Positions 6,088 to 37,744 of a stretch of 64,000 nt of DNA are shown piece by piece. Made by a program: the position numbers and the translations under genes. The stretch comes from Auanema rhodensis (lineage: Eukaryota > Animalia > Nematoda): positions 12,462,001-12,526,000 of the forward strand of contig OZ059896.1 of assembly GCA_964057225.1 (NCBI GenBank). The letters run 5' to 3'. The notes beneath the pieces are model-generated. The model was not told the origin of the DNA and ran no database searches. It saw only the letters and a program-made list of their open reading frames with translations. Positions within the stretch are counted from its first letter, which is position 1. Every line of letters begins with the position of its first letter.

Positions 6088-6299
6088 GAGATAAATTCAA
6101 GTTCAACAACATATCAGTCAATGTACAGTTAATTCCAATTTAGCGTACAAATGTTTCTGAAAAATGTCAAGATTGGAGAATCAAATAAGTGGAACGCACA
6201 TTCCACATCATCAAATAATTTGCACATCAGAACCAAACTACTGTTCAGAAAACTAACAAAGAAAAAGAAACATTCTTATAAAAGACTAATTATTGATTT

Positions 6300-12039: not shown

Positions 12040-12367
12040 AATTAGTATGTAACGCAGTTATTAATGTTCATTAAATTAACCCTCGATATGTGTCGCGTTG
12101 AGGTCAGCGCAACTGTTTGTTAATCTTATGATATAAACATTCAATGTGTGCTCGATAGAGATTTTGTATTGGTTTGTATAGTAAAATAAAATGTTAAACT
12201 ATTCTAATATGTTCATCTTTTCTTTTATTTTGAGAAGTTCACTTGTTACAATAAATTTGACAGCTTATGCGCCCCCAAAAATATGTTTTTAGCAGCTGAC
12301 GCCGTCCAAAGTATACTTTTGACAGCTGTTTGGGGGCGTAGTTATTAAATTTTACACGGCTCTCTAG
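12040..12367 (-). mobile_element. Shrunken Maverick terminal remnant; second copy at ~42460-42779
   Basis: TTTTAGCAGCTGACGCC...TTTGGGGGCGTAGTTA...GGCTCTCT matches the Maverick terminus. GGTCAGCGCAACTGTTT matches the reverse complement of 21717-21733. Confidence 0.75.
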
Positions 12368-12663: not shown

Positions 12664-12734
12664 AAGTTCCGCCATGATTTAAACTGGGGTCGAGCATTCA
12701 GAGTCCTAAGTGTTGACCACTACACCACGGAACC
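12664..12734 (-). pseudogene. Degenerate near-full-length tRNA-Gln(CUG); copy at 43080-43150
   Basis: GGTTCCGTGGTGTAGTGGTCAACACTTAGGACTCTGAAT...GGAACT. The anticodon 3' stem and B-box are damaged. Confidence 0.8.
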
Positions 12735-18700: not shown

Positions 18701-20218
18701 CTTTCCTGTTTTTTCCTGTAATGGTTCGAACCACGACGAACGACCTTTGAACTGCTGCAACTAAATAAGGCCTTTCGAATGAAGGTGTTAGTTTGTTTCG
18801 TGTAGATATGACTTTTATCACTTTTATCATAACTAACTCATTAACCTGAATTTATTTATTTCTTATTTCTATTTCGTGTATTGTACCGTTGTTCATTTTT
18901 CTCTGTGCATGTTTCAATTCTATCTTTTACTATAGCAGAAGTGCTTTCCTTTTGTATTAGTGATCTATTGACAAAACCTTCTGTAGAATTGACTGGTTCT
19001 TCAGTTTGGAGATTATTTCCAGGCAAGTAGTGGTCAATAGGAAGTCTTGCATCCCGACCAAATAATACTATGTATGGACTAATAGATGTTGATGAGTTTG
19101 GTAACGTCTTGATTGCAAACATAACTTTGGGTAGGTGTAAATCCCAGTTAGTTTGTTGTTCATTCACGAATGAAATGACAGCTTTTTCTAAAGTTTTATG
19201 AAGTCTTTCAAATTGTCCATCAGCATTTTAATAGTATGGCAGTGTAGTAGTGTATTTAATTCTAAATTGCTTACACATAGCTTGAAATTCAGAAGACTAA
19301 AAGCTACTACCATTATCGGTCACCATACTCATTGGTGGTCCATATATGAAAACAAATCTAATTACAAACCTTTTTCTTGCTACTGTCGTGTCGTGTGGAT
19401 TAATTGTTTGGATAGACTATAAGCAGAAAAAAATTTCCAGGGACAATGTCAGAGCACATGGATACAGTGGAGGCTGTTCGGAATGAACAGCTACAAAATC
19501 TTTTTGCTGATTTAGTCGGTAGATGTAAGGCGCTTTGATTTTCAATAACCAAATTTGAAATCAAAACTCATTACTCAGGCTCAAATTTTAAGAAACACAA
19601 ATTCGAGCAGTAAAGTAAAGTTAATGATATAACGACTTTTTTGCACTTTTTATGTTCGATATATATATATGTTCTTCTCTTTTTTTTTTTTTCGGGCAAA
19701 ACCGAATGCTTCGATCAATATTTTAAAAATAACGTAAAGAGATAAAAGAATTCATTATCATAACACAACAAAATACAGTATTAGTTATACGCTGACAAAT
19801 AATACAAAAAAAAGAAAAATAATAAGATAGAGATGTATTGAGTTAAGACTAACATAGTTTTAAAGCAACCGATCTGGGTTAGTGCAAAAATAAATTCAAG
19901 TTATATGTATCTCATTTCGTAGGCATGGCTGGTTTAGGCTTTAGTCATTTGAATAGCTTGCACATGTTTAGCATATGTTTGCAGATTTGACATTGAAACA
20001 ATATATATACCAATTGAAATAAATTGAAAAAAACTAAGTTCTATGCTGCTTTATAGTGTAGTATAGAATTATTTTACAGGACTTAAGTTTTGGACAAAAA
20101 CTGTAGTAAATATGTGAAACATATATCGGCCAAAGCAAAAAGCTAAACTTGAAAATTCCGCCTTAAATTAAATTCGACTCGAGGCCGCTTGGATTCATTT
20201 TAATATATTATTTACGTC

Positions 20219-20790
20219 AGTAGAGAGCCATGCCGAATTTACTAACCACGCCCCCAAACAGTTGCTAAAAACATACTTTTGAGGGCGTCAGCTGCTGAAA
20301 ACATACTTTTGGGGGCGTCAGCTGTCAAAATCATATTTTCGGCGTCAGCTGTCAAAAATATACTTTTCCTCCCGAGGCAGGCTCTCGAGCCTGCGCATGG
20401 ATCAAAATGCATGATTTTTTTTTTTAAATTATTTTTTAATGTATTATTTTAAATGATTTTTTATTATTTATATATTTGTTAATTGTATTTGTAAATATTT
20501 TTAAAATTATTTCTTTTTAAATGTATTTTTAATATTTATATATGTTTTAAATATTATTATTTAATTATTTCTTTTTAAATATATTTTATATATTTTTAAA
20601 ATATTATTAAAGTTATCTCCTTTTAAATGTATTTTTAATATTTATACATTTGAATAAACTTTTTAATATATATTGTTTTTGTTTTAATTTATAAAATTTG
20701 AATATATATATAAAAGCTAATTAATATGTTCACCGTACCTCTTATGGGTTAATCAATGGAACTCATATCGAAGGTTAATTCGATAAGATA
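20219..20790 (+). repeat. Maverick left terminal inverted repeat; imperfect homology continues to about 21460
   Basis: The first ~200 bp are near-identical to the reverse complement of ~37020-37224. An AT-rich imperfect stretch follows, then 20721-20790 matches 36590-36660, and 21270-21460 matches 36370-36560. Confidence 0.9.
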
Positions 20791-21941
20791 TATTTTATAT
20801 ATTTATTTTTTAATTTTATTTGTTTATATTGTTTATAGTTTGTGTTTATTATAGTTTATAATTATTAATTTAACTTTTAAAAAGTTTGTTGTTTATCTAG
20901 GCGAACCATTTTGTTCACCGTACCTCTTATGGGTAAATCAATGGAACACATATCGAAAGTTAATTCGATAAGAACGATATGAAATACAAAAGTTAATGGA
21001 ACACATATCGAAGGTTAATTCGATAAGATCGTTAAAACAGGTGCCCTGACCCACACAAAAACCACATGGCAAACGTTTTGTTCATTAAAATATGATAAAT
21101 AGCTGTACACCACATGTACCAAGTTGCCTAATATTTTCAAATTACATGAAAGAATAGTTTAAAGAAATTGTTTTAAATTTTATATTAGTATATTCTAATA
21201 TACTAACTCAATAAAACACATATCGAAGGTTAATTCGATAGGATTCACAAACAATTGTGTTGTTTCCAATGGAACACATATCGAAGATTAATTCGATAAG
21301 ATCGTTAAAACAGGTGCGCTGCCCCACACATGTACCACATGGCAAAAGTTTTGTTCATAAAAATATGATAAATAGCTGTACAGCACAAGTACCCATAACG
21401 CTAAAGAATACTTACTATGCCAAGGGGTCATGGGTATATAGTTTTTAGTATCAAAAATGTTAATGGAACACATATCGAATATCAATTCGATAAGATTGGT
21501 GAAACAGATACGTTGACCCACAATAAACCAAATGGCAAAGCACTTGTTCATTAAAGTATAACAAATAGCTGTATAGCATATGCATCAAGATTTCTAATAT
21601 TCTCAAATTACGTGGAAAGAAGAGTATATAGAAAAAGTTTTAGTGTGTATATTACTAATATTCTAATACCCTAACTCAAAGAACACATATCGAAGATTAA
21701 TTCGATAAGATTGTTGAAACAGTTGCGCTGACCACAACAATACATGCGTATTTATTAACAGCGGATTGGCAACTGCCACTGTTGACAGCTGTAATATGAT
21801 ACAATGTTGAGTGTTGGCAACATTGTTACGTGACAATAAAACAACTGACTGTTCTTGCAATGAAGTGTAATATAAATGTGTAAAATGAAATATGGATAGC
21901 TACCTCTCAGAGTTTGCATAATTTTATTCTGACAAGATACA

Positions 21942-24900
21942 ATGGCTGCTAACAGGTTGTGTTTTTTCCTATCTTTTTTTTTTTAATTAAAATATTTATT
22001 TTCAGTTATAAGCGTGTATGTGAAGATTTGGGGTTCGATTATGAGGAAATTTATCAACTCAGGTAATTTAACAATATTTTTAAAATATACATCTTTGTTT
22101 TTTTTTTTAGTAAGCGCATAAAACTTACCGAGAGTGGTGGTGTTGAGCTGTGTGACCCCGCAATAACCGCTTCCAATAGTGGTCCCTCGTCATCGAGGGT
22201 TATTGAAGTTATCACCTTGGATGACAGCGATAATGAGTAAGCTATCATATAATGAAAAAGCATGAAATTTTTTTTTTTCAGAGAATGGAATCCCGAGATG
22301 CCATCAACTAGTGGAGAACAATTAGGAGGCGGTTCATCCTTCAACGATGTTTGTCAAATAAAGGTACGAGCTTTTAACCTTTTTTTTTCATGTTACAATT
22401 CTTTTCACTCTATATCTTTTATTTGATTACATATCTTGAGCAATTTTGAATTCTGCCATCTATTTTTAAACAAATCATCATACATTTGGTGGCTTTTTGA
22501 AAAATAAAATAAAATCTTATCCCAAATCCATGCCATAATATCATTTATTAAATTTTTATTCATTAAAATACAATTAAATTTAAATATTTTGATGCTCAAA
22601 AACTGACACATTTAAATATTTTGTATTTTTCAAATCATTTCACTCCATCTCTTTTATTTAATTTCATATTTTAAACAATTTTAAATTTTTACCACTACTT
22701 CATAATTTTTATTTATTAAACTTTTTAATCATTAAATTAGACTTAAATTTAAATATTTTGATGCGCAAAAACAGAAACATTTAAATATTTTGTTTTTTCT
22801 AAACCATTTCACTCCATTTATTTTAAACAATTTTATATTTCTACCACTATTTCATAATTTCATTTTTTGAATTTTTGATCATTAAAAAAAAAAACATTTA
22901 AATTTCAATATTGTGATGCTCAAAAACTGAAACATGTAATTGATTTATATTTTCTAAGCCATTTCACTTCATCTCTTTTATTTAATCACATATCTTGAAC
23001 AAATTTAAATTTCTATCACTTTTTCATAATTTCGTTTATTAAATTTTTAATCACTAAAAAACATTTAAATTTCAATATTGTGATGCTCAAAAACTGAAAC
23101 ATTTTAATATTTTGTAATTTTTAAACCATTTCACTTCATCTCTTTTATTTATATATATTTTAAACAATTTTATAATTCTACTATTATTTAATTTTTATTT
23201 ATTAAATTTTTAAACATTAAAAAAAAATTGATGCTCAAAAACTGAAACATTTAAATATTTTGTATTTTTCTAATCGTTTTGAAACAAACTAAACATATAT
23301 TTGAAAACATTTCAATTAAATAAAAAATAACGACTATAACAAACAAAGAGACATAATAATTTTAAGCAAAAGATGAAACAATTCATATATATTCTTAAAA
23401 CTATATTTTTTTAAACTTTTAAAAATAAAAATTAAAAAAAAGCATGTAAACTGTTATAAATGTTGTTTATTATAGTGGTCACACCGGCGCATAAAACGCA
23501 CCGGTCGTTTTACCAACGTGGTCGTTCGATCGCTCACGTTCCCACACTTGGAAAATGTTGATGAACCAATGCATGTTATCATGCCGCGGTTATTCAACGA
23601 ATTCCTTGATCGTTGTCTTGCTGAAAGCGGTGTGCCTGATAAGCAAAAAGCCTTATTTTGTTTATCAATTGAGCACCCTTCCTTTGAAAAGGGCTCCATA
23701 TTTATGGACTTTCGTAGAAGGGAGCATCTGGATGGCGTAGTAATTATGAATGCCATCAGCAAGGTGCAGCAATCAAAACGAGAGGCTGTGATCAGCCAGG
23801 CAATGAATATTGAAATGTATGTGTTTGATGAAAGGCCAGCGCAGCCAAGCCTGATGCCGGGTGAAGGTAGAGTCGGGTATTATTTTGACCCCGAACTCAA
23901 AATACCTGGAACCATTGCCAACACTGACTCACATTGTCTGGCTAGATCAGCAGTTGTGGGAATGTGAAAAGCTGACGAGCTGGCCACTGAAGATGGCGAT
24001 GAGAAGCGAAGGCTGCAAAACCTTCGTCGCAATTACATCTTATTGCCAAATCAGCCACACCATATCAATTTATTAAATAGGTGTGGTATTTCTGTAGATT
24101 TACCAAATTATTATTTAATTCATTTAAACATTATTGCCAGCTGTAATACAAACTATAAGTTTGTAGTATATGCTAGACCGCCTGGACAGCGTATGTACAC
24201 TATCCAGAAAATGTTTAATGAAGCGGCTAGCAAATTGGTAACACTAGGTTACCGAAATAATCACTATGATTGTATTACAGCTGGTAGTCGTTCGAAAATT
24301 TTTGATGGTATTATATGTCAACACTGTAAGTTATCTTACAATACAGTGTTGCACAGATGTAAAGCCAAATGTAAAAAATGCCACACCTATAATTGTAATG
24401 CGATGGGGAATGTGGTTGAGAGTAGCGTGAGGTGTGATAGTTGTAGAGTTTTGTTTAAAACTCAACAATGCTTCGATAGGCATTTGCGAAAAGCCTGCCG
24501 AAAATTCAAGGTATTTTGTGAAAATTTAAAGTTGTACATAACAAGCTTAAATTCAGACATGTGTGGCGTGTGATCACTATCACATGGTCCGTGCTGATAG
24601 ACCGCACAATTGCAATGAAAAATTCTGCAAAAAGTGCGGTCAGACAAAGCCTGAAGAGCACTCTTGTTGTTGGGTTCCACCTAACGACAAGAAGAAGGCT
24701 CAACTAAAAAAGAAGCAAGAAAAGTTCAAGGTTTGTTTTTAACATCTTTACAAGTGTAATGCTTACTTGTTTAAGATTATATTTTATGACTTTGAAACAG
24801 TTGTGTTAAAAAACGGCACAAATGTTCATGAATATGCAGATGAACAATGGCCCAATATGGTTGTGTATAACAAATTTCGTGAAAGTTGTATAGATGCCAA

Positions 24901-27705
24901 TTCCTGTGAAAAATGCACAACCAAGGAGGGCCATTTTGGGTACCAACAAGGTGATAGTGAATGGTCTGTAACAGATCGTTTCCTTGATTGGTTACTCAAC
25001 TTTTCTGAGAATGATAATGCAATTGTGATTGCGCATAACGGATCGCGCTTTGACATACATTTCTTGGTGTCTAGGCTGATAAATCGTGGAATATATCCTG
25101 ACCCCATTTTAAATGGGACCAAGATTATTAGCATGGTTGTCAAGCCTTTAAGAGGTCAAAACTTTAACCATTTATGTTTTAAAGATAGTTATTTACTAGT
25201 GCCTTTACCCTTATCAGCGTTACCCAAGACATTTGGTGTACCTGATATGAGTAAAAGACAATTCCCATACCTCTTTAACCACCCAATAAATTATGGCAAA
25301 GTGCTACCATCCTTGCCACCAAAGCATTACTATTGTACTGCTAGAATGAAAGCAGAAGACCTTGCTTCATTCAATATTTGGTATGAGGAGCGTAATCAAA
25401 GTGTGTTTGATTTTGATGAGGAGCTTCTGGAATATTGTAGGACAGATGTCCGTATTTTAACCAACTGTATGAAAGTGTACATGAAGTTGGCCACCGCCAC
25501 CACTGGCTGGAATCCTGTCATACAATGTATGACATTCGCCAGTTTCTCTTTATTCCAGGCAAGTTTTTTAAAATACAAGCATTTTCAAAACTAGTATATT
25601 ACAGTTGAAAATGAACCACATTAAAGAGAACCAAGTGGGTATTCTGCCTGAGACTGGTTATTATGCCGGCCAGAAGCAGAGTATAATTGCCATAAAATAC
25701 ATAAAATGGTTAGAACACGGATTAGGCCGCCCATTAATGCATAAGCTTAATGGTGGTGAATTTGTTGTGCGAGTAGATGGCCAACGCTATCTACTTGATG
25801 CTTATGACAGTGTGGCTAATCACGGCTATGAGGTGAGTAATTTGTAATAAATGTAAAAAATGAAAAATTTTGTAGTTTAATGGCTGTATTTATCATGGTT
25901 GCCCCCAGTGCACCAACAAGACTGCTATTGCACCAGGCAGAAATGGTGAAACAATGGAAGAGGTAAGCAATACTTTTTTTAATCATTTTAAGCTGAAACA
26001 TTTAGGTTTATGAAAAAACCATGAAAAGGCTGGAGGCTATTCAAAGCCAGGGCATTAGTGTAACCACTGTGTGGGAACACGAAATTACTGCTCAAATGTC
26101 ATCAAATGATCAAATGGCAAATTTTATGAAGAACAATGAGGTTGTAATTCGATTGGCACTTCGAGATGCCTTCACCGGCGGCCGAACTCAAACATATAAG
26201 CTTCTGGCCCAAGCTTCGGATAGATACTCACTAGAGTATGTGGACTTTTGTTCACTTTATCCATATGTAACGGCATTTGATGCCTATTACCCTGTGGGTA
26301 ATCCTAAAGTGATTACTGAGGGCTTTGAGAGTTTTGAGGCATGCTGCCCATACAAGGGCCTTATGAAATGTGACGTGCTTGCACCCACAAATTTGTTGTA
26401 TCCTGTATTAGGAACACGCATAGGCGGTAAATTAATTTTTACAAACTGCCGCACATGTGCAAACAGTGGCAAAAATGTAACATGCCCGCACCAAGATGAT
26501 GAAGACGCTCGAAAGCTGCATCTGACTGTAACGCATGTAGAGCTCGAATGTGTCATACAGCGTGGCTACAAAGTGCTTCATGTTTATGAGGTTTGGCACT
26601 GGGATGAATGGCAGAAAGGAGGCCTATTCAAGGATTTTGTACAAAAGTACATAAAAATTAAGCAAGAGGCATCGGGCTGGCCTAAGCCAAATATGACAGA
26701 GGCTGAAAAGGTATGTGTCATGAAAAGTATGGCATTAAATAACATTTTACAGCTAAAATATCTCCAAGAGCACGAGGAGAACACTGGTGTTGCTCTGGAG
26801 AGCAGCAAAATTGAAAAGAATGCGGCCATGCGTAGCATTGCCAAACTACAGCTGAATAGGTATGTAAACTTTTAAAAATAAAAATTTACAAATTTGCTTA
26901 TAGTGTATGGGGTAAAATGGGTCAAAGACCGGATAAAGCCCAAACCAAGATTATTGGTGTTGAGGATCCTGAAATTGGTAGGATCATAACTGATCCTGCA
27001 AGGGAACTCACGGGCTTCAAAATTGTGGACGATGTGGCGTACTGTACAACAGTGCCAGAAGACTCACACTTGGCACCAGCGCCGTTTACAAATGTAGCCA
27101 TAGCGGCTTATACAACCGCTCATGCAAGGCTACTATTGTATAAGGCAATGGAAAAAATTGGAAAGAACTTGGTGTATACAGGTAATTTTATACTTTGTAT
27201 ACAATTTAAACGTACATCATTTAGACACCGATTCTCTAATTTATTTAAAATGCCTCGATCAGCCTGATCCAATTGAGGATATGAAGGGTGAATGGTTAGG
27301 TAAACTAACCTCAGAAATACCCGATGGATGGTCAATGACCAAATTTGTTTCACCAGCTGCAAAAGTTTATAGTTATGAGCTAGTAAATGCAGCTGGCCAG
27401 GTCAAGTATATCACCAAGGCAAAGGGAGTGGTAAGTATAAAAATATATTATTGAGAAACTTTTTAAAATTACAGACGCTGGACCACACGGCAGCCACCGT
27501 GGTAAACTATCAAAGTATGGAACGATTGGTTCGAGGACTCGTGATGGATGGAGAAAAATTGGTTTTAAAAACCAAAACAACGTTATTAAAGAGGCAGCTT
27601 GGTGCCATATCCACGATGGACATGACAAAGAGTACCAAGGTCGTAATGGATAAACTTTGTTATCTAGACGATTTTAGTACTTTACCCTATGGTTATTGTG
27701 AATAA
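21942..27705 (+). CDS. pPolB: Protein-primed family B DNA polymerase (pPolB), 14 exons, ~1370 codons, one in-frame TGA at 23965-23967
   Basis: Exons: 21942-21955, 22006-22062, 22111-22236, 22282-22363, 23476-24510, 24557-24730, 24776-25558, 25605-25832, 25876-25962, 26006-26710, 26753-26859, 26904-27181, 27225-27430, 27475-27705. They sum to 4113 nt in one frame. Splicing rebuilds the motifs K|IIFYDFET, YE|FNGCIYHGCPQC, KLQLNS|VWGK and YTD|TDS. Also present: HNGSRFD, YCRTDV, DFCSLYP and an OTU-like DSHC...HYD. The 5' four exons are less certain than the rest. Confidence 0.92.
22560..23280 (+). repeat. AT-rich degenerate tandem repeats (~150-170 bp units) inside pPolB intron 4 (22364-23475)
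   Basis: The core GATGCTCAAAAACTGAAACATTTAAATATTTTGT recurs near 22590, 22760, 22915, 23082 and 23230. Confidence 0.8.
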
Positions 27706-27843
27706 TTTTCAATATATTTGAATTTATAAATTTTATTATTGCGTGTATATTTGTATATGGTTGTATTTATAGATTTTTATGTATAGTTGTATTAATAAAT
27801 TTTATTCTTCTCATCAAATGTTTTAAAGAGTTTATTACATACA

Positions 27844-29178
27844 TTACAAACTGGTATCAATATATGGAGCACGATTGTTGTCAATTGAAAGAATAGAGTC
27901 ATATTCTGCATAAACAATAGCATATAAACCCTCTTGCGGCGTTTGTTGACCAAATTCCAATTTCAGGGCCACATTACCTTGTCGTATAACATCAAATAAC
28001 TCGGACGAGTGTACAGTCGGTGAAATATCAAATACAAAAAATGTGAACCCAGCTTTATACATTGCTGGTGTAATACCATTGGATGAATCTGTACGACCAA
28101 GGCCCAAACCTTCCAACATGTCAATATATGCTGTGGCATAGGAAGAACGCCATTCTAAATTATAAGGGCGGGTAGGTATTACCCGATTGTTGAGCGTCAA
28201 GTATATATTTTTCAATTCAAACGGTTTAAAGTTGAATGGCGAATGTTTAAAAGTACCATTATAAGCGTGTGCGCCGACAAGACCTACTACAACACGTTTC
28301 GGTGTATGCGACGTGAATAATATGTTATTGGGTGAATCCAAACGACCTCCTTCTATGAAATAAGATCGCATTTTCACTGACGTCATGGGGTAGTGTATTC
28401 GTTCCTTTACAAGTTTATCTTCTATAGCCATAGCTAATCCAGCGTTTAGATCAAACTCTTGAATAAGCAAGTGCACATCGTTGATATCTATTTTCAGGTT
28501 TGGAAACTCCTCCATCATTGCAGCATCCTTGCTTTCATTATTCCATCCAAGTGTGTCAATTAAGAAATTATCACGGTTTGGATATGCAGTTAGCTCCATT
28601 TTTGAATAGTTTACAAACAGTCGTTCCTGATTGAATAAGTCGATACTGATGGGAGCAGCCATCTCACACAATATGCCATTTTTAACAAGCCCTTGTCGCG
28701 CTCTAAATCCAGGACTGGCTGCATTATCTATATATCTATCCGCATAATACCCTGATATGGCAAGTTTGCTCTCTTTAACATCGTTGCTATACATTAGAAT
28801 ATTCTCAATATATGTTTTGTAGGCATGATTTACGGTAGAGTCATACACGCTAACATCACCAATTTTTAAATGATACGAGTGTATCAAACTGGCTGCAAAT
28901 TGTTGGCATGGTGCAAAAACAAGGTTGTCTAGTACTGGATCACCGTTTGTGGTTACAATTTTGAATTTTACATTCAACCAACACCTTCTCAGATTAAGAA
29001 ATGATTTGGAATTTTGGGCTATAACAAATTACCATGGTCCTTGAGGAAGAAAAGTATTTTTTAAAGGAACTTGTACAGTACGAGTGGATTCAACACCTAA
29101 TGCCGACGCCGGTATGTCACTATAATTAATATTAGGTAAAAGGGCTTGTGCTGATTTTGAATCTATCAATTTAGCCAT
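27844..29178 (-). CDS. MCP: Major capsid protein (double jelly-roll); premature TAA at 29029-29031
   Basis: ATG at 29178 gives MAKLIDSKS...QGPW*FVIA, in frame with the 377-aa ORF. Polinton MCP-like motifs: DLFNQERL, PKRVVVGLV, PFNFKPF, FFVFDISP, IVYAEYD. Confidence 0.9.
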
Positions 29179-29631
29179 TTAAATACGATACGACCGCTCA
29201 CGAGTTATGCACAGACGCTTATGAGGTTTTGTGGTTTTGCGTCGTCGCCGCTTGCCCAAGCCGGTAAGATCTCGTATAGCCTGCCGGCCGGCTGTTTTAA
29301 GAGTTTGCTTGATATTATCGCCCTTGAGCACCCCATCAACAATTTCATTGCTAGTTTTTAGCAACTGGCCGCCAAGAGGTGAATTTACAACTGGACTATT
29401 GCTTACAGCACTGGATAATGCATTCCTTCCAGCATTGATGAGATTTTGGGCTATAGGTGATTGAATAATGCGAGGTAAAAACGATGCCAAAGTTGCCAGT
29501 ATACCACCCAGGCCATGACCTCTCTGCATACCACGTTTAAACATCATTCCACTAAATGGCGCCCCACCCATTTGTTGATTCAAAAGTGTTGTCCATTGAA
29601 TTGAGTTCAAGTCTAGAAGGAGGTGTGGCAT
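29179..29631 (-). CDS. Putative virion core or membrane-lytic precursor protein (adenovirus core/protein VI-like)
   Basis: QMGG|A, QRGH|G and LTGL|G resemble adenain cleavage sites. It has an amphipathic GLGGILATLASFLPRII segment and a basic KRRRRK tail. Its stop directly abuts the MCP ATG. Confidence 0.65.
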   Translation of the reverse strand: MPHLLLDLNSIQWTTLLNQQMGGAPFSGMMFKRGMQRGHGLGGILATLASFLPRIIQSPIAQNLINAGRNALSSAVSNSPVVNSPLGGQLLKTSNEIVDGVLKGDNIKQTLKTAGRQAIRDLTGLGKRRRRKTTKPHKRLCITRERSYRI

Positions 29632-29681
29632 ATTGAACCGCACGTGCGCAATACAAAAGTTACACTAGATCATTTTACTAA

Positions 29682-30137
29682 ATGTATTCGTCTGAAATAG
29701 CGTCACTATTGCGATCTGTCCGCATCACTCGAAAACTATTCCTCGGTGTATTTAGCGCCGATACTCTACCCAAAACACGTCGAAAGAACTTTGCACTTGT
29801 TGTAAATACTGACACACACGATAAACCGGGCACACATTGGCAAGTCATCTTTGTACGTAATGATCAAGCCTACTTTTTCTGTAGCTTGGGTTATAAAATG
29901 AACAAGTACATTCGTCATTATCTGGCGAAATATAAAAATATAAAAGTTAATACTTGCAAACCACAACGCATAATTGAATACACTTGTGGTGGTTATGCAA
30001 TATTTGTAATACTAATGTTGTCAGCTGGTAATACATTTGAAAGCATTTGTTCATTTTTTAAACTATTACAAAACGATGATGTCTTTATTAAAGCTTTTAT
30101 GCATAAAGTATTCGACTATAAATTATCTAGCATATGA
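29682..30137 (+). CDS. PRO: Adenain-like cysteine maturation protease
   Basis: VNTDTHDKPGTHW (His) and PQRIIEYTCGGY (Gln/Cys) motifs typical of Polinton proteases. Confidence 0.92.
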   Translation: MYSSEIASLLRSVRITRKLFLGVFSADTLPKTRRKNFALVVNTDTHDKPGTHWQVIFVRNDQAYFFCSLGYKMNKYIRHYLAKYKNIKVNTCKPQRIIEYTCGGYAIFVILMLSAGNTFESICSFFKLLQNDDVFIKAFMHKVFDYKLSSI

Positions 30138-30395
30138 TCAACTTTGCCATTAAAACGTCACCTGCTACATTAGGTGGTCAGTTATGAATATTCCCTGTCA
30201 CTGTGAATTATGTATAAGATACACGTTGGAACAATCTGTGCCAACACCCCTGTACAAAAAGATTTTGAAACGTATTTCAGTGCCATTCATTAAAGGAATA
30301 TCTCTGGGACTACGCTTTTGTACTACACTAGTCATTATTCCACTCATTATATAAAAGTGAGTTGACTGTGTGTGGTTGTTTTTTATTTTCCTCTA

Positions 30396-30860
30396 ATGGA
30401 ACTTTTATGTAACAAGTATTGTGTTACGTGCAAGGAAATATTTTCATCAGTCAAGCATTTTAGTGATCACATATTGAAAAGACATGACGGGATTCAACCC
30501 GTATGTAACAGTTATATCAGCAATGCTGACTTTATTCAAAAATATGGACATTTGGATGGTGTTCGTAGACGTTTGTGCCCTTATTGTAGTGAAACTTTTG
30601 GAACAAGATTCATTTGTCAGCGTCATATTCGGCGTCTTCATAATAGTAATGGAACGAATGGTAAAGATGGTGATGGAAATGATACCAGCGAACCCTCTGA
30701 AAAAACTGAGGAGTTTGTACAGTCAACCGAACCAAAACGATGCCGCTGCAATAGTAACCGAGAATATTCACAACACGAGCCGCGCATCGAACAAAACGGC
30801 GCTGAACTACCTTTTAAACCTTCGAAAATCGTAATGTGGTCTTGTATAACTGTTGAATAA
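30396..30860 (+). CDS. C2H2 zinc-finger protein with two fingers (accessory gene)
   Basis: CVTCKEIFSSVKHFSDHILKRH and CPYCSETFGTRFICQRHIRRLH. ATG at 30396, TATA-like TATATAAAA near 30348, AATAAA at the stop. Confidence 0.75.
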   Translation: MELLCNKYCVTCKEIFSSVKHFSDHILKRHDGIQPVCNSYISNADFIQKYGHLDGVRRRLCPYCSETFGTRFICQRHIRRLHNSNGTNGKDGDGNDTSEPSEKTEEFVQSTEPKRCRCNSNREYSQHEPRIEQNGAELPFKPSKIVMWSCITVE

Positions 30861-30865
30861 AACAT

Positions 30866-31723
30866 TTATTTCACATTTTTAACATGTAATGTAACAACTG
30901 TAGAACCATAATTAAATTGCATAGGGCGACCAAATTCATCTAAAATTTCAATACGTATAGTATCGAGTGTTTGCTTAGTGATTGGTACATAACGAATAGG
31001 ATTAAATGTTTTGACAATCATTTTACCAAATTCAGTGGGAGGTGGTACAGGTAAACATGCAAGTAAATTAGCTTTCACATTACCGAGAATGGAATATTCT
31101 ACAATATCACAATAGATATACATTGTATTAATGTTATTTGAAAAATCAATGGGGCGCCTGGCTATTAACGTGTCGTTGATAATTTTATTCTCAAAGCCAA
31201 GAAAATATGCGAGAGCATCACCGAGTGTTGCATTCAATAATAGCCGCTTACTTGTTACAAACTCTATGCGTTGTAGTGTTTTGTTAAACCGAAACGTGGC
31301 GTCTGCCAGCATTTCCTTGACAAGTTTAGCCTCAGCTTGTCGATTATTATACCACTTTTTCACATCTTCATCTTTATCTATCAAACCCTTTATACGTGCT
31401 TCTTCCTCAGCTCCAAGAGGTTTAGTGCTGCTAGCAATAAATTGTTCTTTTCCAGCATTGATTCCGCGTATTATTTCATCACCATTTGCATAGTTACCTT
31501 TGGGCAAGTGCAGAATAAACTTTCTGTTGGAAAAACGTAGTGTATAAGAAAGATTTTCTTGTACATTTAATATCGAACACGGAAAAATTATGTCTGTCAG
31601 CCCGATGCAATATCTGTTATTGCATAGCCTTAATGTTTCAGGTAACCTGGTAAGAAACACTGATGAGGTATTACTTTTTTCAGAGTCAACTGATGACGGC
31701 AAAGTAATGTAAAAATCATCCAT
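30866..31723 (-). CDS. mCP: Minor capsid (penton) protein
   Basis: N-terminal MDDFYITLPS, then YIYCDIVE...LL and C-terminal IRIEILDEFGRPMQFNYGSTVVTLH, the Polinton mCP pattern. Confidence 0.85.
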   Translation of the reverse strand: MDDFYITLPSSVDSEKSNTSSVFLTRLPETLRLCNNRYCIGLTDIIFPCSILNVQENLSYTLRFSNRKFILHLPKGNYANGDEIIRGINAGKEQFIASSTKPLGAEEEARIKGLIDKDEDVKKWYNNRQAEAKLVKEMLADATFRFNKTLQRIEFVTSKRLLLNATLGDALAYFLGFENKIINDTLIARRPIDFSNNINTMYIYCDIVEYSILGNVKANLLACLPVPPPTEFGKMIVKTFNPIRYVPITKQTLDTIRIEILDEFGRPMQFNYGSTVVTLHVKNVK

Positions 31724-31802
31724 CACAGACCACCACCTGATGCGTGCACACTAGTATAAATGAAATCATTTGCATTATAGGTACATTTACGAGTGGTTGA
31801 TT

Positions 31803-32450
31803 ATGGTTTTCAGCTTCAAACTACCCAGTCAGACAACTGTAATAGGGGCAACGCAATGTGGTAAAACTACCCTTATAAAACGTATATGTGAAAATACTGA
31901 AAAGTTTTTCAACGTCCCCATTGATAGAATATTCTGGTTCAGTCAATGTGGAGCATCGTCAGGTGTTCCATTAAATGATGAGCGTTTAATAGTTATTCAA
32001 GGACCACCTGATCCGGATATAATAAAAGAACAAAAGGGAATGAACACCATACTAGTGCTGGATGATTTGATGAATTTTTTCTCATCGAATAAAGCGGCTA
32101 AAGAATTATTCAACAACCTTTTTACAGTGTGGGCACATCACTGGAATTTGGCAGTGTTTAATCTTGTGCAAGCTGCATTTCAGCTAGACAGGACCAGTCG
32201 AATTAATAGTACATATATAATACTGATGAAAAGTCATTCGGATATATTACAAATACGTAATTGTCTGCAACAATTATTTGGCCCCCGCTTTAAAAATGCT
32301 CTAGAAGCATATGATGATGCAATGTCTACACCCTATAGTCATTTACTGATTGACAACCATCCTTTAACAAATGAGAAACAGCGTATACTATCAGATATAA
32401 CAGCGGAGCACCCTATTGTTTATGTAGCCAGAAATATATTCAGTGTTTAA
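31803..32450 (+). CDS. A32/FtsK-like DNA packaging ATPase
   Basis: Walker A GATQCGKT, Walker B ILVLDDL, plus HHWN, RINSTYI and YSHLLID. Confidence 0.92.
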   Translation: MVFSFKLPSQTTVIGATQCGKTTLIKRICENTEKFFNVPIDRIFWFSQCGASSGVPLNDERLIVIQGPPDPDIIKEQKGMNTILVLDDLMNFFSSNKAAKELFNNLFTVWAHHWNLAVFNLVQAAFQLDRTSRINSTYIILMKSHSDILQIRNCLQQLFGPRFKNALEAYDDAMSTPYSHLLIDNHPLTNEKQRILSDITAEHPIVYVARNIFSV

Positions 32451-32462
32451 TGTGCATGTTCA

Positions 32463-32771
32463 ATGAGTGGTCGTGTTTTGTCAAATTACAACTTTTTATC
32501 TTCTTGTGCCAAAACCCCTTGTTCTGTTTCCTCATTTTCTTTTTCACAAATTGAAATTATTGTTGAAATTGTATTTAATATTGTGAAAAAAAATAATTTT
32601 CTCTTAACTAACAAGGAATATAAAACCCTTTTGCCCATATCCTCATTATTACGTCAAATAGCTTTGATACGCACACCCGAAAAGGCTAAAACTTTATTGG
32701 CAACGATTTCACACAAACCATTGAAAACAATAGTTTCATGTGGAATTGCTTATTTTGGTTTTAAAAGATGA
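32463..32771 (+). CDS. Small conserved Polinton protein of unknown function
   Basis: 102-aa intact ORF tightly packed downstream of the ATPase. IVEIVFNIVK resembles the small conserved ORF of Polintons. Confidence 0.7.
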   Translation: MSGRVLSNYNFLSSCAKTPCSVSSFSFSQIEIIVEIVFNIVKKNNFLLTNKEYKTLLPISSLLRQIALIRTPEKAKTLLATISHKPLKTIVSCGIAYFGFKR

Positions 32772-33505
32772 AACTCAATCATAAATATCGTCTAATCCCT
32801 GTGGATGATGAAACGCTGAATATAGACAAGTTTGATGCTGAATTGAAGCTCTTACGAGAGAATAAATCTATACCCAATTATAAAAAGGCTGAACTATACG
32901 AAGACTTGATTACCCGTCTCAAAAACTATAGAGAAAGCATAGATGCTCCTATATCAGTACAAGTGGAAAATGCTGATCCACCATTATTGCCAGAATACAA
33001 GCTGCCACGAAAGTATAACGATCTGTGGGAAAGATTTCCAGAGGTGCGTACAAACAAAAATAACCAACTTGTGATTAATAATAAGCCCGTACCAAACACA
33101 AATATTACAAAAATTTTGGATTTTGTACTGGATAAAACAAAAACGGAACCCAATGGATTCTCAGTATTAGCCAAATTCTTAGCCAGTAATGGGGTCTCTA
33201 GCCCTAACAAGAAGGCAAAAAATGTAGAGCCTGCCGTCAGTAACAAGGATTCAGTTGATCCCGTGCCTACATCCACATCGGCTGTCACAGACTTGGATGC
33301 TACTATTAATATATTACCTAGAACACCACGTCATCGTAAGGCTGTTATTCGATATTCACCCTCTCCGCGTCGTACATTCAAATCCAAAGCTATACATAAA
33401 AAGGCAAAACCCGCTGACACTGGTGAATCATATTACACACCTCAGGCGGGAGAAACACAGAATGGCAAAGGCCGTAAACGATTCTACATTAGATTATGGA
33501 AGTAA
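32768..33505 (+). CDS. Conserved Polinton protein of unknown function upstream of the integrase
   Basis: 245-aa ORF overlapping both neighbours (ATGA overlap at the 5' end). Basic low-complexity tail ending QNGK|GRKRFYIRLWK. Confidence 0.75.
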   Translation: MKLNHKYRLIPVDDETLNIDKFDAELKLLRENKSIPNYKKAELYEDLITRLKNYRESIDAPISVQVENADPPLLPEYKLPRKYNDLWERFPEVRTNKNNQLVINNKPVPNTNITKILDFVLDKTKTEPNGFSVLAKFLASNGVSSPNKKAKNVEPAVSNKDSVDPVPTSTSAVTDLDATINILPRTPRHRKAVIRYSPSPRRTFKSKAIHKKAKPADTGESYYTPQAGETQNGKGRKRFYIRLWK

Positions 33506-34529
33506 TGTTTTGGAGAACATTTATTATAATATTAAGCATCCAGCTTCTTATACGTCTGCCAAAAATCTATTATTGGAAGCGCGAAAGCATGGCATCGCAA
33601 AAGCACAAGTTGAAAGTTTTTTGCAAGACTCTGAAACTTTTACACGTCATAAACCAACCAGACTGCATATGCAGACTAAAAAGACTAGAGGCTGTGGTCG
33701 ATTCCTAACAATGCAAGCAGATTTGGTTGATATGCAAAAATATAAAAAATCAAATGACGGCTATGCTTACATGTTGACCATGATTGATGTTTATACACGC
33801 ATGTTATATGTTAGGCCTTTGAAAACTAAAGGTGGTTTAGAGGTTGCTACTGCATTTGAAAATGTATTCAAGGATTTTATACCAATCCAACTAATAACGG
33901 ATAACGGTGCAGAGTTTTATAATAGTCATTGTGAAAAACTATTCAAAAAATTTGCCATACTGCATGGATCAACAAGTTCACCACAAAAAGCGGCAATGGT
34001 GGAGCGAGCAAATAGAACTTTAAAAACGCGCATGATGAAATATCTCTATTACAAGAATAATCATCGATGGATTGATATACTAGATGACTTGGTCGAAGGA
34101 ATAAACAAATCTTATAATCGGTCGATTAAAATGCGCCCCGTAGATGTTACAGCAAATATATTCGTTGAAGAATATGCACCAGCTGTTCGCAACCGATTCA
34201 AAATTGGTGATAATGTTCGCATAAGCAAGAACAGGCGTACTTTTGAAAAAAGTTACAAGTCTGGATATACAATGGAACTATTCACAATTGATGAGATTGT
34301 AGCCGGGAACCCAACCGTGTATAAACTTGTAGATTATAATGGTGAACGTATAAAGGGTATATTCTATGAGCCTGAACTTGTGTTGGCTACTAATAAAAGC
34401 AACCAGTACTATATTGAGAAAGTTTTGAAAGAGCGTACACGAAATGGTAAACGCCAAGTATTTGTAAAATGGAGTGGCTATCCCGACAACTTTAATGAAT
34501 GGATAAATGCAGAAAATTTAAATGTATAA
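33462..34529 (+). CDS. INT: Maverick c-integrase (DDE) with C-terminal chromodomain
   Basis: IYYNIKHPASY, QADLVD, TDNGAEF, VERANRTLK. Chromodomain YYIEKVLK...VKWSGYPDNFNEWI. First in-frame ATG at 33462. Confidence 0.93.
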   Translation: MAKAVNDSTLDYGSNVLENIYYNIKHPASYTSAKNLLLEARKHGIAKAQVESFLQDSETFTRHKPTRLHMQTKKTRGCGRFLTMQADLVDMQKYKKSNDGYAYMLTMIDVYTRMLYVRPLKTKGGLEVATAFENVFKDFIPIQLITDNGAEFYNSHCEKLFKKFAILHGSTSSPQKAAMVERANRTLKTRMMKYLYYKNNHRWIDILDDLVEGINKSYNRSIKMRPVDVTANIFVEEYAPAVRNRFKIGDNVRISKNRRTFEKSYKSGYTMELFTIDEIVAGNPTVYKLVDYNGERIKGIFYEPELVLATNKSNQYYIEKVLKERTRNGKRQVFVKWSGYPDNFNEWINAENLNV

Positions 34530-34575
34530 TTTTTCACTGTTGTTGTAAACAATTGTATTAATAATAATAAATGAT

Positions 34576-35423
34576 TTATTTGATCAATCGTTCATATTGT
34601 AACAATAAAAAACCAGCAAAACATAAAAGCCAAGACAATGATATAACCTATAATTATAAACTGATTAATATTTAAATTTTCAATGCTTACCAGTTGGTTT
34701 GAGAGTCGGCTGTTGATGGATAATTTCAAACTTCAAGAGCTGGAAAAAAAAATGTTACGGCTAAGAAAATTTAAATATAACATAACAAAATCAACCAACT
34801 GTCCATTAAACAGTTTGTGCTTGTTGTAGTCAAAACGATGGATCAAAACGGATAAGCATATTCAAGTTGAGCGCCTGTTGACTTAATTTAAAGTAGAACA
34901 CATTCTGCTTATAACCAAAAGACTTGACAGTTGACTCATCAGTATAAATGGCAATGTAACCCATATTATTCAACAATTGTTTTGATGACATGCTAGAATA
35001 AGAACGCATCTGTAAAAGAAAAAATAATAATTAGAATTAATAATTTTATAATCTTACATTGATTGTTGAATTTTCAGGTTTATAATGACGGAAAACTTTT
35101 AAAAGCCCTAAGGCATCATTCCTCGCTCTACACTTGACACAGAGGCTGAAACAGTGGTACTCGTCTACGACTTGCAATGTATCTCTACAAGTTTTGCAGA
35201 GACATATTGGTCTCATAACTACAGGCTGTTGTGGAGAGCTATCCTTTGAGATTTGTACCTGCTTTTTTGGTGTGTCTAAACAAAAAATAATTGATAACAA
35301 AAATAAAACCTTACCAAAGAATGTGGCAGCAAAGTTGGGTCCTGGTGTGGGTGGTCGTGGAACATCCGGTTCCGGTGTCGAAGGTACAATATTCTCTACA
35401 TCAACAAGAGCGGAACGCTTCAT
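34576..35423 (-). CDS. Spliced accessory gene of unknown function: Pro-rich, Cys-rich, with a hydrophobic C-terminal exon; 5' end and exon chain uncertain
   Basis: Canonical introns on the minus strand at 35314-35276 (GTAAGG..TTTAG) and 35057-35010 (GTAAGA..TTTTACAG), plus a GTAAGC..TATAG intron near 34690-34649. CLCKTC...CFSLCVKC. The last exon reads GYIIVLAFMFCWFLLLQYERLIK*. A TGA near 34830 interrupts the chain. Confidence 0.5.
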
Positions 35424-35519
35424 GTTTGTAGCCCAATTGGAGGCTTTTCCTAAACAACAACGAACTTTTACGTCTAGGGTCCAAGTAGAGTAGAGGAAAG
35501 TCCTAGCAGCAGTCTGTTG

Positions 35520-35645
35520 ACGTTGGATCAGATCGTCGACTTGTTGGCAGAGGTGGATCGGCGAGAAGATTTGGTGGCGGAGCTGGATCGGAGAGTAGAC
35601 TTGTTGACAGAGCTGGATCGTAGAGTCGACTTGTTGGCGGAGCTG
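35520..35645. repeat. 30-bp tandem repeat, about 4 copies
   Basis: Units like GAGCTGGATCGGAGAGTAGACTTGTTGACA repeat with a 30-nt period. Confidence 0.85.
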
Positions 35646-36369
35646 AAATGCAAATTTCGGTCTAAAAAATTTTGCCACCTTTTATACAAACTTCGTTGTA
35701 AAGCTATACCCACTCCGCCTCTTTCACAAAACAGTTGACTGCTGTATGCGGCTTTTCTATTTGTTATATATTACAACAAATGTATGCATTTATACATTAA
35801 TTAGCAGTTTGTTGCGCAAACAGCTGCCAAATGCGCTAAAATACACCGATTGCGCCAACAGTTGCCGGATTAACAACCTGTAAACTATCCGCTTATTAAT
35901 TACTTGTTACATCATTCGATTTCGTAAATACAAATATTTAACAATAATTCAACTCATTTGTGACAAGTCCCTATACAATAACAACTGTCATCCAAAATTG
36001 TGGAAGATTACAATAGGATCGTTTAATATTGTATTCATATTCTTATTATAACAGCTGTGGTACACTCTTACTTTTATAGTTTAGGAAACACTAATTCAAA
36101 ATGTTGGATCCTACTGAGGAAACGCAGGATTGTTGCGAAAAACAGACTTGTACACATCCGATTACAAGTACAACATTTCCAGACACTTTGTAAAAAAAGA
36201 AACTCTTACAAAATGTTAACACATGTTCTAATTTTAAATGAAAATTTATTGTTCAATAAATATATTACGAAACATTTATTCTATTCTTGAACATAGTTAT
36301 GAAATACATTAGCTATCAGAACATTTATAAACTATTAGGGCTACAACAACAATTACTTTAAAGTAACAT

Positions 36370-37224
36370 TTTTGATGTTAAAAAGTTTGAAAATATTCGT
36401 ATATACTCATGACCCCTTGGCATAGTAAGTATTCTTTAGCGTTTTGGGTACATGTGGTGTACAGCTATTTATCATATTTTTATGAACACAACTTTTGCCA
36501 TGTGGTACATGTGTAGTGCACCTGTTTTAACGATCTTATCGAATTAACCTTCGATATGTGTTTCATTAAATTTAGTTTAAATATTTATTACTTCTTATCG
36601 AATTAACCTTCGATATGAGTTCCATTGATTAACCCATAAGAGGTACGGTGAACATATTGATTACCTTTTAAAAATATTTAAATAAATAAAAAACAATATA
36701 TATGAGAAATAATTTATTCAGTTTTAAAGATACAATTAAAAAATATATAAATATTTTATTCTTATTCAGTTTTAAAGATACAATAAAAAAATATATAAAT
36801 ATTAAAATACATTCAAAAAGAAATATTATTAAAAATATATTTAAAAAAAAACAATTAAATAATAATATTTACAAATACAATTTAAAATATATATAAATAT
36901 TAAAAATACATTTAAAAAGAAATAAGTTTAAAAATATTTACAAATACAATTAACAAATATATAAATAATAAAAGTTCATTTAAAATAATACATTAAAAAA
37001 TAATTTTAAAAATGATTTTAAAAAAAAATCATGCATTTTGATCCATGCGCAGGCTCGAGAGCCTGCCTCGGGAGGAAAAGTATATTTTTGACAGCTGACG
37101 CCGAAAATATGATTTTGACAGCTGACGCCCCCAAAAGTATGTTTTTAGCAGCTGACGCCCTCAAAAGTATGTTTTTAGCAACTGTTTGGGGGCGTGGTTA
37201 GTAAATTCGACATGGCTCTCTACT
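36370..37224 (-). repeat. Maverick right terminal inverted repeat
   Basis: Reverse complement of the left end, including the GGCGTCAGCTG repeats and the GCAGGCTC-NN-GAGCCTGC hairpin. Confidence 0.9.
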
Positions 37225-37693
37225 TACGTCGCACACACCAAAACGTGTTGTAGTAGGTGTTGTCGGCGCACACGCTTATAATGGTACTTTCAAGCATTCG
37301 CCATTCAACTTAAAACCGTTTGATTTCAAAAATATATGAATACTTGACACTCAACAATAGAGGAATACCTACCCAACTTTATAAATCAGAATGGCGATCT
37401 TCCTATACCACAGCATATATTGACATGTTGGAAGGTTTGGTTGTACAGAGTCATTCAATGGTATTACACCAGTAATGTATAAAGCTGGTTTCACATTTTT
37501 TGTATTTGATATTTCTCCTACTGTGCATTCGTCGAAGTTATTTGATGTTATACGACAAGGTAATGTAGCCTTTAAATTGGAATTTGGTCAACAAACGCCG
37601 CAACAGGGCTTATAGGCTATTGTTTATGCAGAGTATGACTCTATTCTTTCCATTGACAACAATCGTGCTCCTTATATTGATACCAGTTTGTAA
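37225..37693 (+). pseudogene. 3' part of the MCP gene of an older Maverick; its 5' continuation is at 20181-20218
   Basis: Homologous to the reverse complement of 27844-28315 (TSHTPKRVVVG...IDTSL*), with frameshifts. Confidence 0.9.
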
Positions 37694-37744
37694 TGTATAT
37701 AATAATTTCTTTTTTTTAATTTCATACTTTCAAAGTTCACCACT

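What the first reader, a model, noticed from the sequence alone, without database searches (positions are those of the whole stretch)
20766..21707. Array of palindromic TATCGAA-N6-TTCGATA boxes at both Maverick ends
Seen: seven copies at the left end (starts 20766, 20951, 21006, 21221, 21279, 21473, 21688) and two inverted copies at the right end (36537, 36596). The 7-bp arms and 6-bp spacer length are invariant, while the spacer bases vary (GGTTAA, AGTTAA, GATTAA, TATCAA). That pattern fits a dimeric protein binding site under selection. The 7:2 asymmetry lies upstream of pPolB. Inference: enhancer, origin iterons or a packaging signal, analogous to adenovirus left-end packaging repeats.
Basis: partly seen in the sequence, partly recalled or inferred. 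Interest (0 to 1): 0.7.

Follow-up and report, generated by a model that had tools for sequence, protein, structure and literature searches.

The report
Palindromic switch boxes at Maverick ends
A virus-like Maverick transposon in a probable nematode genome carries nine copies of a mirror-symmetric 20-base DNA box near its two ends, unchanged while the repeats around them drifted, so they are likely protein-binding switches for its first genes rather than a packaging or replication signal.

Summary
Confirmed: nine exact TATCGAA-N6-TTCGATA boxes (7 left, 2 right) lie 547-1488 bp inside the ends of a 17,006-bp Maverick (20219-37224, 6-bp target duplication) from a nematode-like host. Corrections: the box is the core of an asymmetric ~34-bp unit; the spacer is not free (3 of 6 columns invariant, GGTTAA in 5 of 9); only one box per end is in the terminal inverted repeat, and 7:2 comes from tandem duplication of larger multi-motif units. 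The arms are more conserved than their surroundings (0 of 14 variable columns vs 45 of 118 in units 65-96% identical, p=0.002), with no compensated change, which favours protein recognition over a hairpin. But a sibling-family end in the window has the same doublet with broken arms (9-11 of 14), contig variants were uninformative, and no array was found elsewhere, so the site looks family-specific. The adenovirus packaging analogy fails on sequence and position; terminal 30-bp repeats are better origin or packaging candidates. Best reading: a tandemly amplified enhancer bound by a two-fold symmetric factor, upstream of both inward-facing genes; the binder (host CUT-like factor or the element's two-finger protein) is unknown.

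The parts
20219..37224 (+). Maverick/Polinton element, 17,006 bp, AG..CT ends
20213..20218 (+). left target-site duplication TACGTC
37225..37230 (+). right target-site duplication TACGTC
20219..20410 (+). left terminal GC-richer block (190 of 192 identical to the right end) with 3.8 copies of a 30-bp repeat (20259-20367); positional candidate for origin or packaging signals
37033..37224 (-). right terminal block with 30-bp repeats (37076-37184)
20411..20720 (.). 93% A+T linker between terminal repeats and first box
36666..37030 (.). 92% A+T linker at the right end
20755..20788 (+). 34-bp unit with box 1 (20766-20785); inside the terminal inverted repeat
20940..20973 (+). unit with box 2 (20951-20970); doublet with box 3, 55 bp apart
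20995..21028 (+). unit with box 3 (21006-21025), head of a long repeat unit
21210..21243 (+). unit with box 4 (21221-21240); doublet with box 5, 58 bp apart
21268..21301 (+). unit with box 5 (21279-21298); contigs leave the window sequence at both edges of this unit
21462..21495 (+). unit with box 6 (21473-21492), most diverged spacer
21677..21710 (+). unit with box 7 (21688-21707), last before the inward gene
36593..36626 (-). unit with right outer box (36596-36615); inside the terminal inverted repeat
36534..36567 (-). unit with right inner box (36537-36556), 59 bp from the outer box; its body is 96% identical to the unit of box 5
21066..21085 (+). second conserved 7+6+7 motif ATGGCAA-N6-TGTTCAT, not a clean dyad; also at 21339, 21532 and 36482-36501 (minus)
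21715..21735 (+). downstream module (AAACAG core) that follows most boxes; 17 bp of it are identical in the sibling end
21942..22363 (+). first exons of the left inward gene (ATG 21942; GT..AG segments of 45-50 nt; TATA-like 21871); likely the 5' part of the pPolB gene (inferred)
35046..35423 (-). right inward ORF (Cys-rich, no homologue found); acceptor-like TTTCAG at 35643
30396..30860 (+). 154-aa two-C2H2-finger protein of the element; candidate binder
12069..12146 (-). sibling-family end relic: homologous doublet of degenerate boxes, 58 bp apart
42480..42557 (-). duplicate of the sibling doublet (same 2.2-kb duplication, 96%)

Best explanation
The boxes are the invariant mirror-symmetric core of a 34-bp unit repeated inside both ends of a Maverick, and they likely act as enhancer sites bound by a two-fold symmetric DNA-binding protein that would drive the two inward-facing genes. 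Shown: sequence, position, unit structure, excess conservation of the arms within this element, and loss of the dyad in a sibling family. Inferred: purifying selection acted on double-stranded sequence; an ancestral doublet (two boxes 55-59 bp apart, still present at the right end and in the sibling) was multiplied at the left end by tandem duplication of multi-motif units of about 200-270 bp, giving 7:2; more sites would mean stronger activation of the polymerase-side gene. Untested: binding, transcription and the binder. A host factor (CUT-like core ATCGA in all 18 arms) is slightly more likely than the element's own two-finger protein.
For: Arms 0 of 14 variable vs 45 of 118 body columns in four units 65-96% identical, Fisher p=0.0024. 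Dyad columns 0 of 16 vs 9 of 18 other columns of the unit, p=0.0011. P=0.0013 for 14 random body columns. No compensated change where about 3-4 would be expected under hairpin repair (P=0.05 and 0.02); weak hairpin, -3.8 to -6.1 kcal/mol in 5 of 9 boxes folded. Units point inward at both ends; the last left box is 235 bp from the ATG of a spliced gene, with a TATA-like site at 21871. The long units carry further conserved motifs, as composite enhancers do. Doublet spacing is 55, 58, 59 and 58 bp with three dissimilar linkers. Contigs of all 4 runs laid leave the window sequence at the edges of the 34-bp unit with the same foreign flanks, so the unit persists in other contexts. Boxes are too far inside for origin or packaging roles.
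Against: No binding or expression data. The arms were first picked by eye, so the p-values are somewhat optimistic, and 1 of 99 other 7+6+7 windows in the body is also invariant. The nine copies share ancestry. In the sibling end the arms match only 9 of 14 and 10-11 of 14, with 3-4 of 7 pairs complementary, against 31 of 37 in the flanks (Fisher p=0.15): no excess conservation, from one independent lineage. Among contigs, 1 of 17 listed substitutions falls in an arm against 1.35 expected. No named factor matches exactly: DRE 0, CEH-48 ChIP consensus 0 exact. The right boxes are about 900 bp from the first acceptor-like site. No box array in 98 distant Maverick-like loci.
Confidence: 0.5

Rival explanations
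1. No function of the dyad: a short unit kept identical by gene conversion and template switching, with hairpin-templated repair perfecting the arms; the box is simply the crossover point where sub-terminal blocks are reshuffled.
For: Upstream and downstream flanks change partners at the boxes. The right inner unit is 96% identical to left unit 5, showing recent exchange. Arms are not conserved in the sibling. Contig variants show no arm depletion.
Against: Within the same 34 bp, non-dyad columns vary (9 of 18) and dyad columns do not (0 of 16), which uniform conversion does not predict. No compensated change (P=0.05-0.02).
Confidence: 0.18
2. Packaging signal bound by the element's ATPase and a partner, like the adenovirus A repeats.
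For: Seven copies at the left end, as in adenovirus (PMC4189039 passage). CG in each arm. An ATPase is encoded. Family specificity would fit selective packaging.
Against: TTTG-N8-CG is absent from all 9 units. Boxes are dyads, lie at both ends, and are 547-1488 bp inside, against about 300 bp tolerated in adenovirus. The A-repeat consensus occurs instead twice in the terminal 30-bp repeats of each end, although the whole-window count is 37 vs 28 +/- 5 by chance.
Confidence: 0.1
3. Replication-enhancing iterons, or a dual origin and enhancer like baculovirus homologous regions, bound by an element protein or by the zinc-rich N-terminus of pPolB.
For: Same form as hrs: repeated units each holding a palindrome, with activity rising with copy number (PMC4535591 abstract). 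A 92-93% A+T tract lies between the boxes and each end.
Against: Protein-primed replication starts at the termini (PMC8097293 passage). The terminal 192 bp are 190 of 192 identical between ends and 82-84% conserved in the sibling, against 68% for the box region. A need shared by both ends would predict symmetric numbers.
Confidence: 0.12
4. Sub-terminal binding repeats for end synapsis and integration, as in hAT transposons whose BED fingers read asymmetric sub-terminal repeats.
For: Asymmetric left and right arrays and cooperative binding to a quasi-palindrome are known for Hermes (PMC10368747 passages). The BED-protein-type core CGATA is in all 18 arms. A BED/hAT-like remnant lies about 330 bp inward of the sibling doublet (Pfam zf-BED E=0.015, below cut-off).
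Against: No BED-like sequence in the intact element: tblastn finds it only at 41780-42149 and 46329-46698. The integrase is rve plus chromodomain. The boxes are more than 540 bp from the tips.
Confidence: 0.07

Closest known systems
Baculovirus homologous regions (hrs), enhancer/origin arrays (PMC4535591, abstract and opening read; IE1 as binder from search listing)
   Same: Clusters of repeated units, each with a 20-30 bp palindrome, in A+T-rich non-coding DNA of an invertebrate dsDNA virus; variable copy number per cluster.
   Different: hrs are dispersed round a circular genome; here there are two inward-pointing arrays in a linear, protein-primed, integrated element. No IE1 homologue was noted. 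Function untested here.
Adenovirus packaging domain, seven A repeats TTTG-N8-CG bound by IVa2 and L4-22K (PMC4189039, passages)
   Same: Related virus lineage, seven copies near the left inverted terminal repeat, CG core.
   Different: Consensus absent from the units, dyad instead of bipartite asymmetric, both ends, more than 540 bp inside.
Polinton_CE_TIR of C. elegans (PMC11414722 and 10.1101/2024.01.15.575659, passages)
   Same: Species-specific nematode Polinton terminal repeats of about 0.7 kb, with predicted transcription-factor sites noted nearby.
   Different: No palindromic array described in the passages read; the TIR alignment (Table S7) was cut from the stored supplement and could not be compared.
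DRE/BEAF-32 CGATA elements (PMC2605929, passages) and the C. elegans CUT site ATCGA / AATCGATA (10.1101/2021.12.10.472091, passages)
   Same: Each arm holds CGATA on one strand and ATCGA on the other.
   Different: No exact TATCGATA or AATCGATA; the half-sites diverge with a fixed 6-bp spacer. DREF and BEAF are described from flies (that nematodes lack them is recalled, not tested).

Membership tests
Maverick/Polinton (host element) | protein-primed PolB plus retroviral-like integrase | tested here: met
   DNA_pol_B_2 E=5.5e-21 and 6.8e-16; rve E=3.9e-9 with chromodomain
Maverick/Polinton (host element) | packaging ATPase, protease, major and minor capsid genes | tested here: met
   Peptidase_C5 and ATPase matches are weak, below cut-off; four regions are conserved in 24-54 of 80 integrase-bearing loci; capsid names inferred from size and position
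Maverick/Polinton (host element) | terminal inverted repeats, AG..CT ends, 6-bp target duplication, about 17 kb | tested here: met
   criteria from PMC8097293 passages
Adenovirus-type packaging A repeats | TTTG-N8-CG consensus | tested here: not met
   0 in 9 units
Adenovirus-type packaging A repeats | within about 300 bp of one genome end | tested here: not met
   547 and 609 bp from the ends at the nearest, both ends; criterion
Adenovirus-type packaging A repeats | bound by the packaging ATPase | not testable with these tools
   needs a binding assay
Baculovirus hr enhancer/origin | tandem units each with a palindrome | tested here: met
Baculovirus hr enhancer/origin | several clusters dispersed round a baculovirus genome | tested here: not met
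   two terminal clusters in a Maverick; no box elsewhere in the window
Baculovirus hr enhancer/origin | enhancer and origin activity | not testable with these tools
   needs reporter assays
DRE (DREF site) | TATCGATA | tested here: not met
   0 exact, 2 within one mismatch in 9 units; 0 in the window
CUT/ONECUT site (CEH-48) | core ATCGA | tested here: met
   18 of 18 arms; only five bases
CUT/ONECUT site (CEH-48) | ChIP consensus AATCGATA | tested here: not met
   0 exact, 11 within one mismatch
Nematode Sequence For Elimination (Oscheius type) | GGC-N3-GCC core | tested here: not met
   0 in both end regions; criterion
Heat-shock element | GAA/TTC inverted pentamers (consensus recalled) | tested here: not met
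   0 in the units and end regions
hAT sub-terminal BED-binding repeats | element encodes a BED-finger transposase | tested here: not met
   no BED-like sequence inside 20219-37224

The most novel reading that the evidence does not exclude
The boxes are a family-specific operator read by the element's own two-finger protein, whose DNA-contacting residues differ in nearly every relative: a lock-and-key pair that evolves per Maverick family, lets each family switch on or mark only its own genome, and would be the first cis-element and trans-factor pair known for Mavericks.
Probability: 0.2. Interest if true: 0.75.

Novelty: new variant of a known kind. Interest (0 to 1): 0.42.

Why it matters
How endogenous Mavericks switch on their genes is open: the Maverick papers read describe only terminal 6-bp end motifs and terminal-repeat lengths, and one names an unknown trigger for particle formation. 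A discrete, copy-number-variable, family-specific dyad upstream of the polymerase-side gene is a precise bait for finding that regulator by pull-down or reporter. If the binder is the element's own protein, it would explain how Maverick families sharing a genome keep their regulation apart. If neutral, it is only a well-defined recombination point in sub-terminal DNA.

Tried and rejected
No whole genome is held, so the host-wide motif scan could not be run. Motif search in IMG/VR: 73 loci, 1 of 73 with a second box within one mismatch, 0 of 73 with the asymmetric unit; treated as chance. Longer unit pattern in metagenome contigs: 0. Terminal 30-bp repeat pattern in IMG/VR: 0. Single-integrase search in IMG/VR: no relative. 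80 metagenome and 18 viral loci with distant integrases (35-42% and 24-41%): no box array; five single sites within two mismatches among the 80, one within one mismatch among the 18; only 27 of the 80 hold a non-coding run of 300 nt or more, so this is a weak negative. Summed contig depth over boxes 2-3 is tens of times that of neighbouring DNA; rejected as copy-number evidence, since short overlapping contigs and shared units pile up there. No RNA holder listed. Reads were laid on 20900-21960 only, so box 1 and the right end have no variant data. CpG decay as the cause of the sibling's arm changes: transition rates at CpG 0.13 vs GpC 0.08 and other 0.11 (103 alignments), and 0.21 vs 0.17 and 0.18 (6 alignments); too weak. 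SFE, HSE and DRE not matched. The piRNA Ruby core CTGTTTCA (recalled) occurs twice next to boxes 6 and 7 but is not kept in other units or the sibling: rejected. The sigma-70 scan is irrelevant to this host. Right-end ORF: no homologue. Earlier findings: nothing bearing. The original Polinton paper could not be read.

Full report
OBSERVATION. A search for TATCGAA-N6-TTCGATA with up to two mismatches gives nine matches in the 64-kb window, all exact, at the stated starts; 100 shuffles give 0.46 +/- 0.61, at most 2. They lie in a Maverick spanning 20219-37224 (17,006 bp) with AG..CT ends and a 6-bp TACGTC duplication. The terminal 192 bp are 190 of 192 identical between ends. Pfam finds pPolB and rve plus chromodomain above cut-off, and protease and ATPase below it. 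Four further regions are shared with 24-54 of 80 integrase-bearing contigs; calling two of them capsids is inferred from size and position. The best named integrase relatives are Caenorhabditis proteins at 42-47%, and the introns look nematode-like, so the host is probably a nematode. No genome is held.

ANATOMY. From each tip inward: a GC-richer block with 3.7-3.8 copies of a 30-bp repeat, a 92-93% A+T tract of 310-365 bp, then the boxes, the first 547 bp (left) and 609 bp (right) from the end. The box is the core of an asymmetric unit of about 34 bp whose column counts out of nine are 8987799979999999997698999999999899, so all units have a direction and point inward. Spacers are GGTTAA 5, GATTAA 2, AGTTAA 1, TATCAA 1; 3 of 6 spacer columns are invariant. 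The terminal inverted repeat (20219-20805 vs 37224-36578, 82%) holds one box per end; the right doublet also maps onto the left doublet 21221/21279 (36628-36400 to 21208-21440, 86%). Four boxes head long homologous units that carry further conserved motifs, among them ATGGCAA-N6-TGTTCAT 55-60 bp downstream. Boxes occur as doublets 55, 58 and 59 bp apart with dissimilar linkers (9 of 29, 13 of 26 and 12 of 27 matches). The 7:2 ratio is therefore the product of tandem duplication at the left (inferred). The last left box ends 235 bp before an ATG at 21942, followed by GT..AG segments of 45-50 nt, with a TATA-like site at 21871; that these exons belong to the pPolB gene is inferred, as homology to relatives starts at 24316. 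The right boxes lie about 900 bp before an acceptor-like site at 35643 and an inward ORF without homologues.

IS THE DYAD UNDER SELECTION? For. In the four long units (pairwise 65-96% identical), 0 of 14 arm columns vary against 45 of 118 body columns (Fisher p=0.0024); 14 random body columns are all invariant with P=0.0013. Within the 34-bp unit, across all nine, 0 of 16 dyad-symmetric columns vary against 9 of 18 others (p=0.0011). Hairpin-templated repair would leave compensated changes; none is seen (P=0.05 and 0.02 under a simple model), and the hairpin is weak (-3.8 to -6.1 kcal/mol, five boxes folded). Contigs from four runs (three studies) leave the window sequence at the edges of the unit (21268 and 21301; 21680 and 21710) with the same foreign flanks in each run, and run X5 shows a further context; 48 loose-end rows were not shown. 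The unit thus persists in other settings, probably related elements.

Against. The arms were first chosen by eye, the copies share ancestry, and 1 of 99 comparable windows in the body is also invariant. Of 17 substitutions listed in the contigs, 1 lies in an arm against 1.35 expected: uninformative. Most important, a weight matrix of the unit finds a homologous doublet, 58 bp apart, in a sibling-family end at 12366, duplicated at 42779 within one 96% duplication (scores 14-18 vs background 7.9 or less). Its arms match 9 of 14 and 10-11 of 14, with 3-4 of 7 pairs complementary, against 31 of 37 in the flanks of the first box, including an identical 17-bp module (p=0.15). The box region is 68% identical and the tips 82-84%. 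Nine changes in 28 arm positions exceed decay at the tip's rate (P=0.04), and CpG hypermutability is slight, so the arms probably differed between the active families. The perfect dyad is family-specific, on the evidence of one lineage.

ELSEWHERE. IMG/VR gave 73 loci, 1 with a second box within one mismatch, 0 with the full unit; metagenome contigs gave 0. Among 80 plus 18 loci with distant integrases there is no box array, but only 27 of the 80 contain 300 nt of non-coding DNA. Two of them carry repeated dyads of other sequence at non-coding ends (L105, L104).

MECHANISM. Packaging: adenovirus has seven A repeats, TTTG-N8-CG, bound by IVa2 and 22K, which fail beyond about 300 bp from the end (PMC4189039, passages). 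The units contain 0 such repeats, lie at both ends and too far in; the consensus appears instead twice in the terminal 30-bp repeats of each end, though the window total (37 vs 28 +/- 5) is near chance. Origin: Maverick end motifs are expected to serve protein priming at the tips (PMC8097293, passages), and the tips are the part conserved across ends and families. What remains is a homotypic cluster in tandem multi-motif units upstream of inward genes, the layout of a duplicated viral enhancer; baculovirus hrs are the closest in form (PMC4535591, abstract and opening). I put this at 0.5. Binder: each arm holds ATCGA, the catalogued CEH-48 core, and 11 sites are within one mismatch of its ChIP consensus AATCGATA, none exact (10.1101/2021.12.10.472091, passages). 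CGATA (BEAF) is in all 18 arms; DRE, HSE and the Oscheius SFE core are absent. The element also encodes a 154-aa two-finger protein (pLDDT 71-93 in blocks over residues 1-80) with seven unnamed relatives of similar size. Their helix positions -1, 2, 3 and 6 give 7 different patterns among 8 sequences in finger 1 and 8 in finger 2. That fits a family-specific reader, but nothing ties it to the box, its relatives were not found in 98 distant Maverick-like loci, and whether it dimerises is open.

LITERATURE. Ten searches. In the listings, and in passages of Jeong et al. (10.1101/2023.08.22.554363; supplement list and part 1 of PMC10748475), Widen et al. (10.1101/2022.07.12.499685), the eri-6/7 paper and Barreat and Katzourakis, I found no description of sub-terminal palindrome arrays in Mavericks. 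The C. elegans TIR alignment (Table S7) was cut from the stored file, and the original Polinton paper was not held, so a prior mention cannot be excluded. Hermes (PMC10368747), PDE (PMC13060919, PMC13370393) and BEAF (PMC2605929) papers were read as passages only.

VERDICT. A real, conserved, family-specific dyad element in Maverick sub-terminal DNA, most likely regulatory. It is a new variant of a known kind (repeated palindromic viral cis-elements), not a member of the adenovirus packaging or baculovirus hr families.

Noticed in passing
window 20180-20218 and 37225-37712: The element inserted into the capsid gene of an older copy of its own family: both flanks match the capsid coding sequence across the TACGTC duplication. 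A rearranged fragment continues to about 39720.
   Followed up: yes
window 21942-24780 (+) and 35423-34740 (-): Both inward genes and the polymerase region appear to carry short GT..AG introns with TTTCAG-type acceptors, whereas the core genes of the C. plicata Maverick were described as intronless. One apparent intron holds a 169-bp tandem repeat (22543-23224).
   Followed up: partly
window 27844-29181 (-): The capsid reading frame has one in-frame stop about 50 codons after its start, so this copy is probably defective.
   Followed up: partly
window 20259-20367 and 37076-37184: Terminal 30-bp repeats with a CAGCTG core; two per end match the adenovirus A-repeat consensus TTTG-N8-CG within 140 bp of the tips. 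Six specified bases only; window count not clearly above chance.
   Followed up: partly
window 30396-30860: Two C2H2 fingers joined by a conserved helical linker, confidently folded over residues 1-80, with a conserved C-terminal aromatic strand; seven unnamed relatives of 112-162 aa. Looks like an undescribed small family.
   Followed up: partly
window 41780-42149 (-) and 46329-46698 (+): Decayed BED-finger/hAT-like coding remnant, one copy just inward of the sibling Maverick end; cargo or separate insertion not resolved.
   Followed up: partly
L105 1-110 and L104 270-365: Two distant Maverick-like contigs have other repeated dyads in non-coding ends: CCTAAG-N6-CTTAGG three times in a 25-bp tandem repeat, and a longer GC-rich palindrome twice. 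A hint that sub-terminal dyads recur with different sequences.
   Followed up: partly
window 35524-35645: 30-bp tandem repeat (4.1 copies) just inside the acceptor-like site of the right inward gene; reads as Ser/Arg-rich in one minus frame.
   Followed up: no
window 1-19900 and 39700-64000: Dense nested repeats and segmental duplications, including BEL/Pao retrotransposon remnants at about 59100-63600 and a gag-like ORF at 2811.
   Followed up: no
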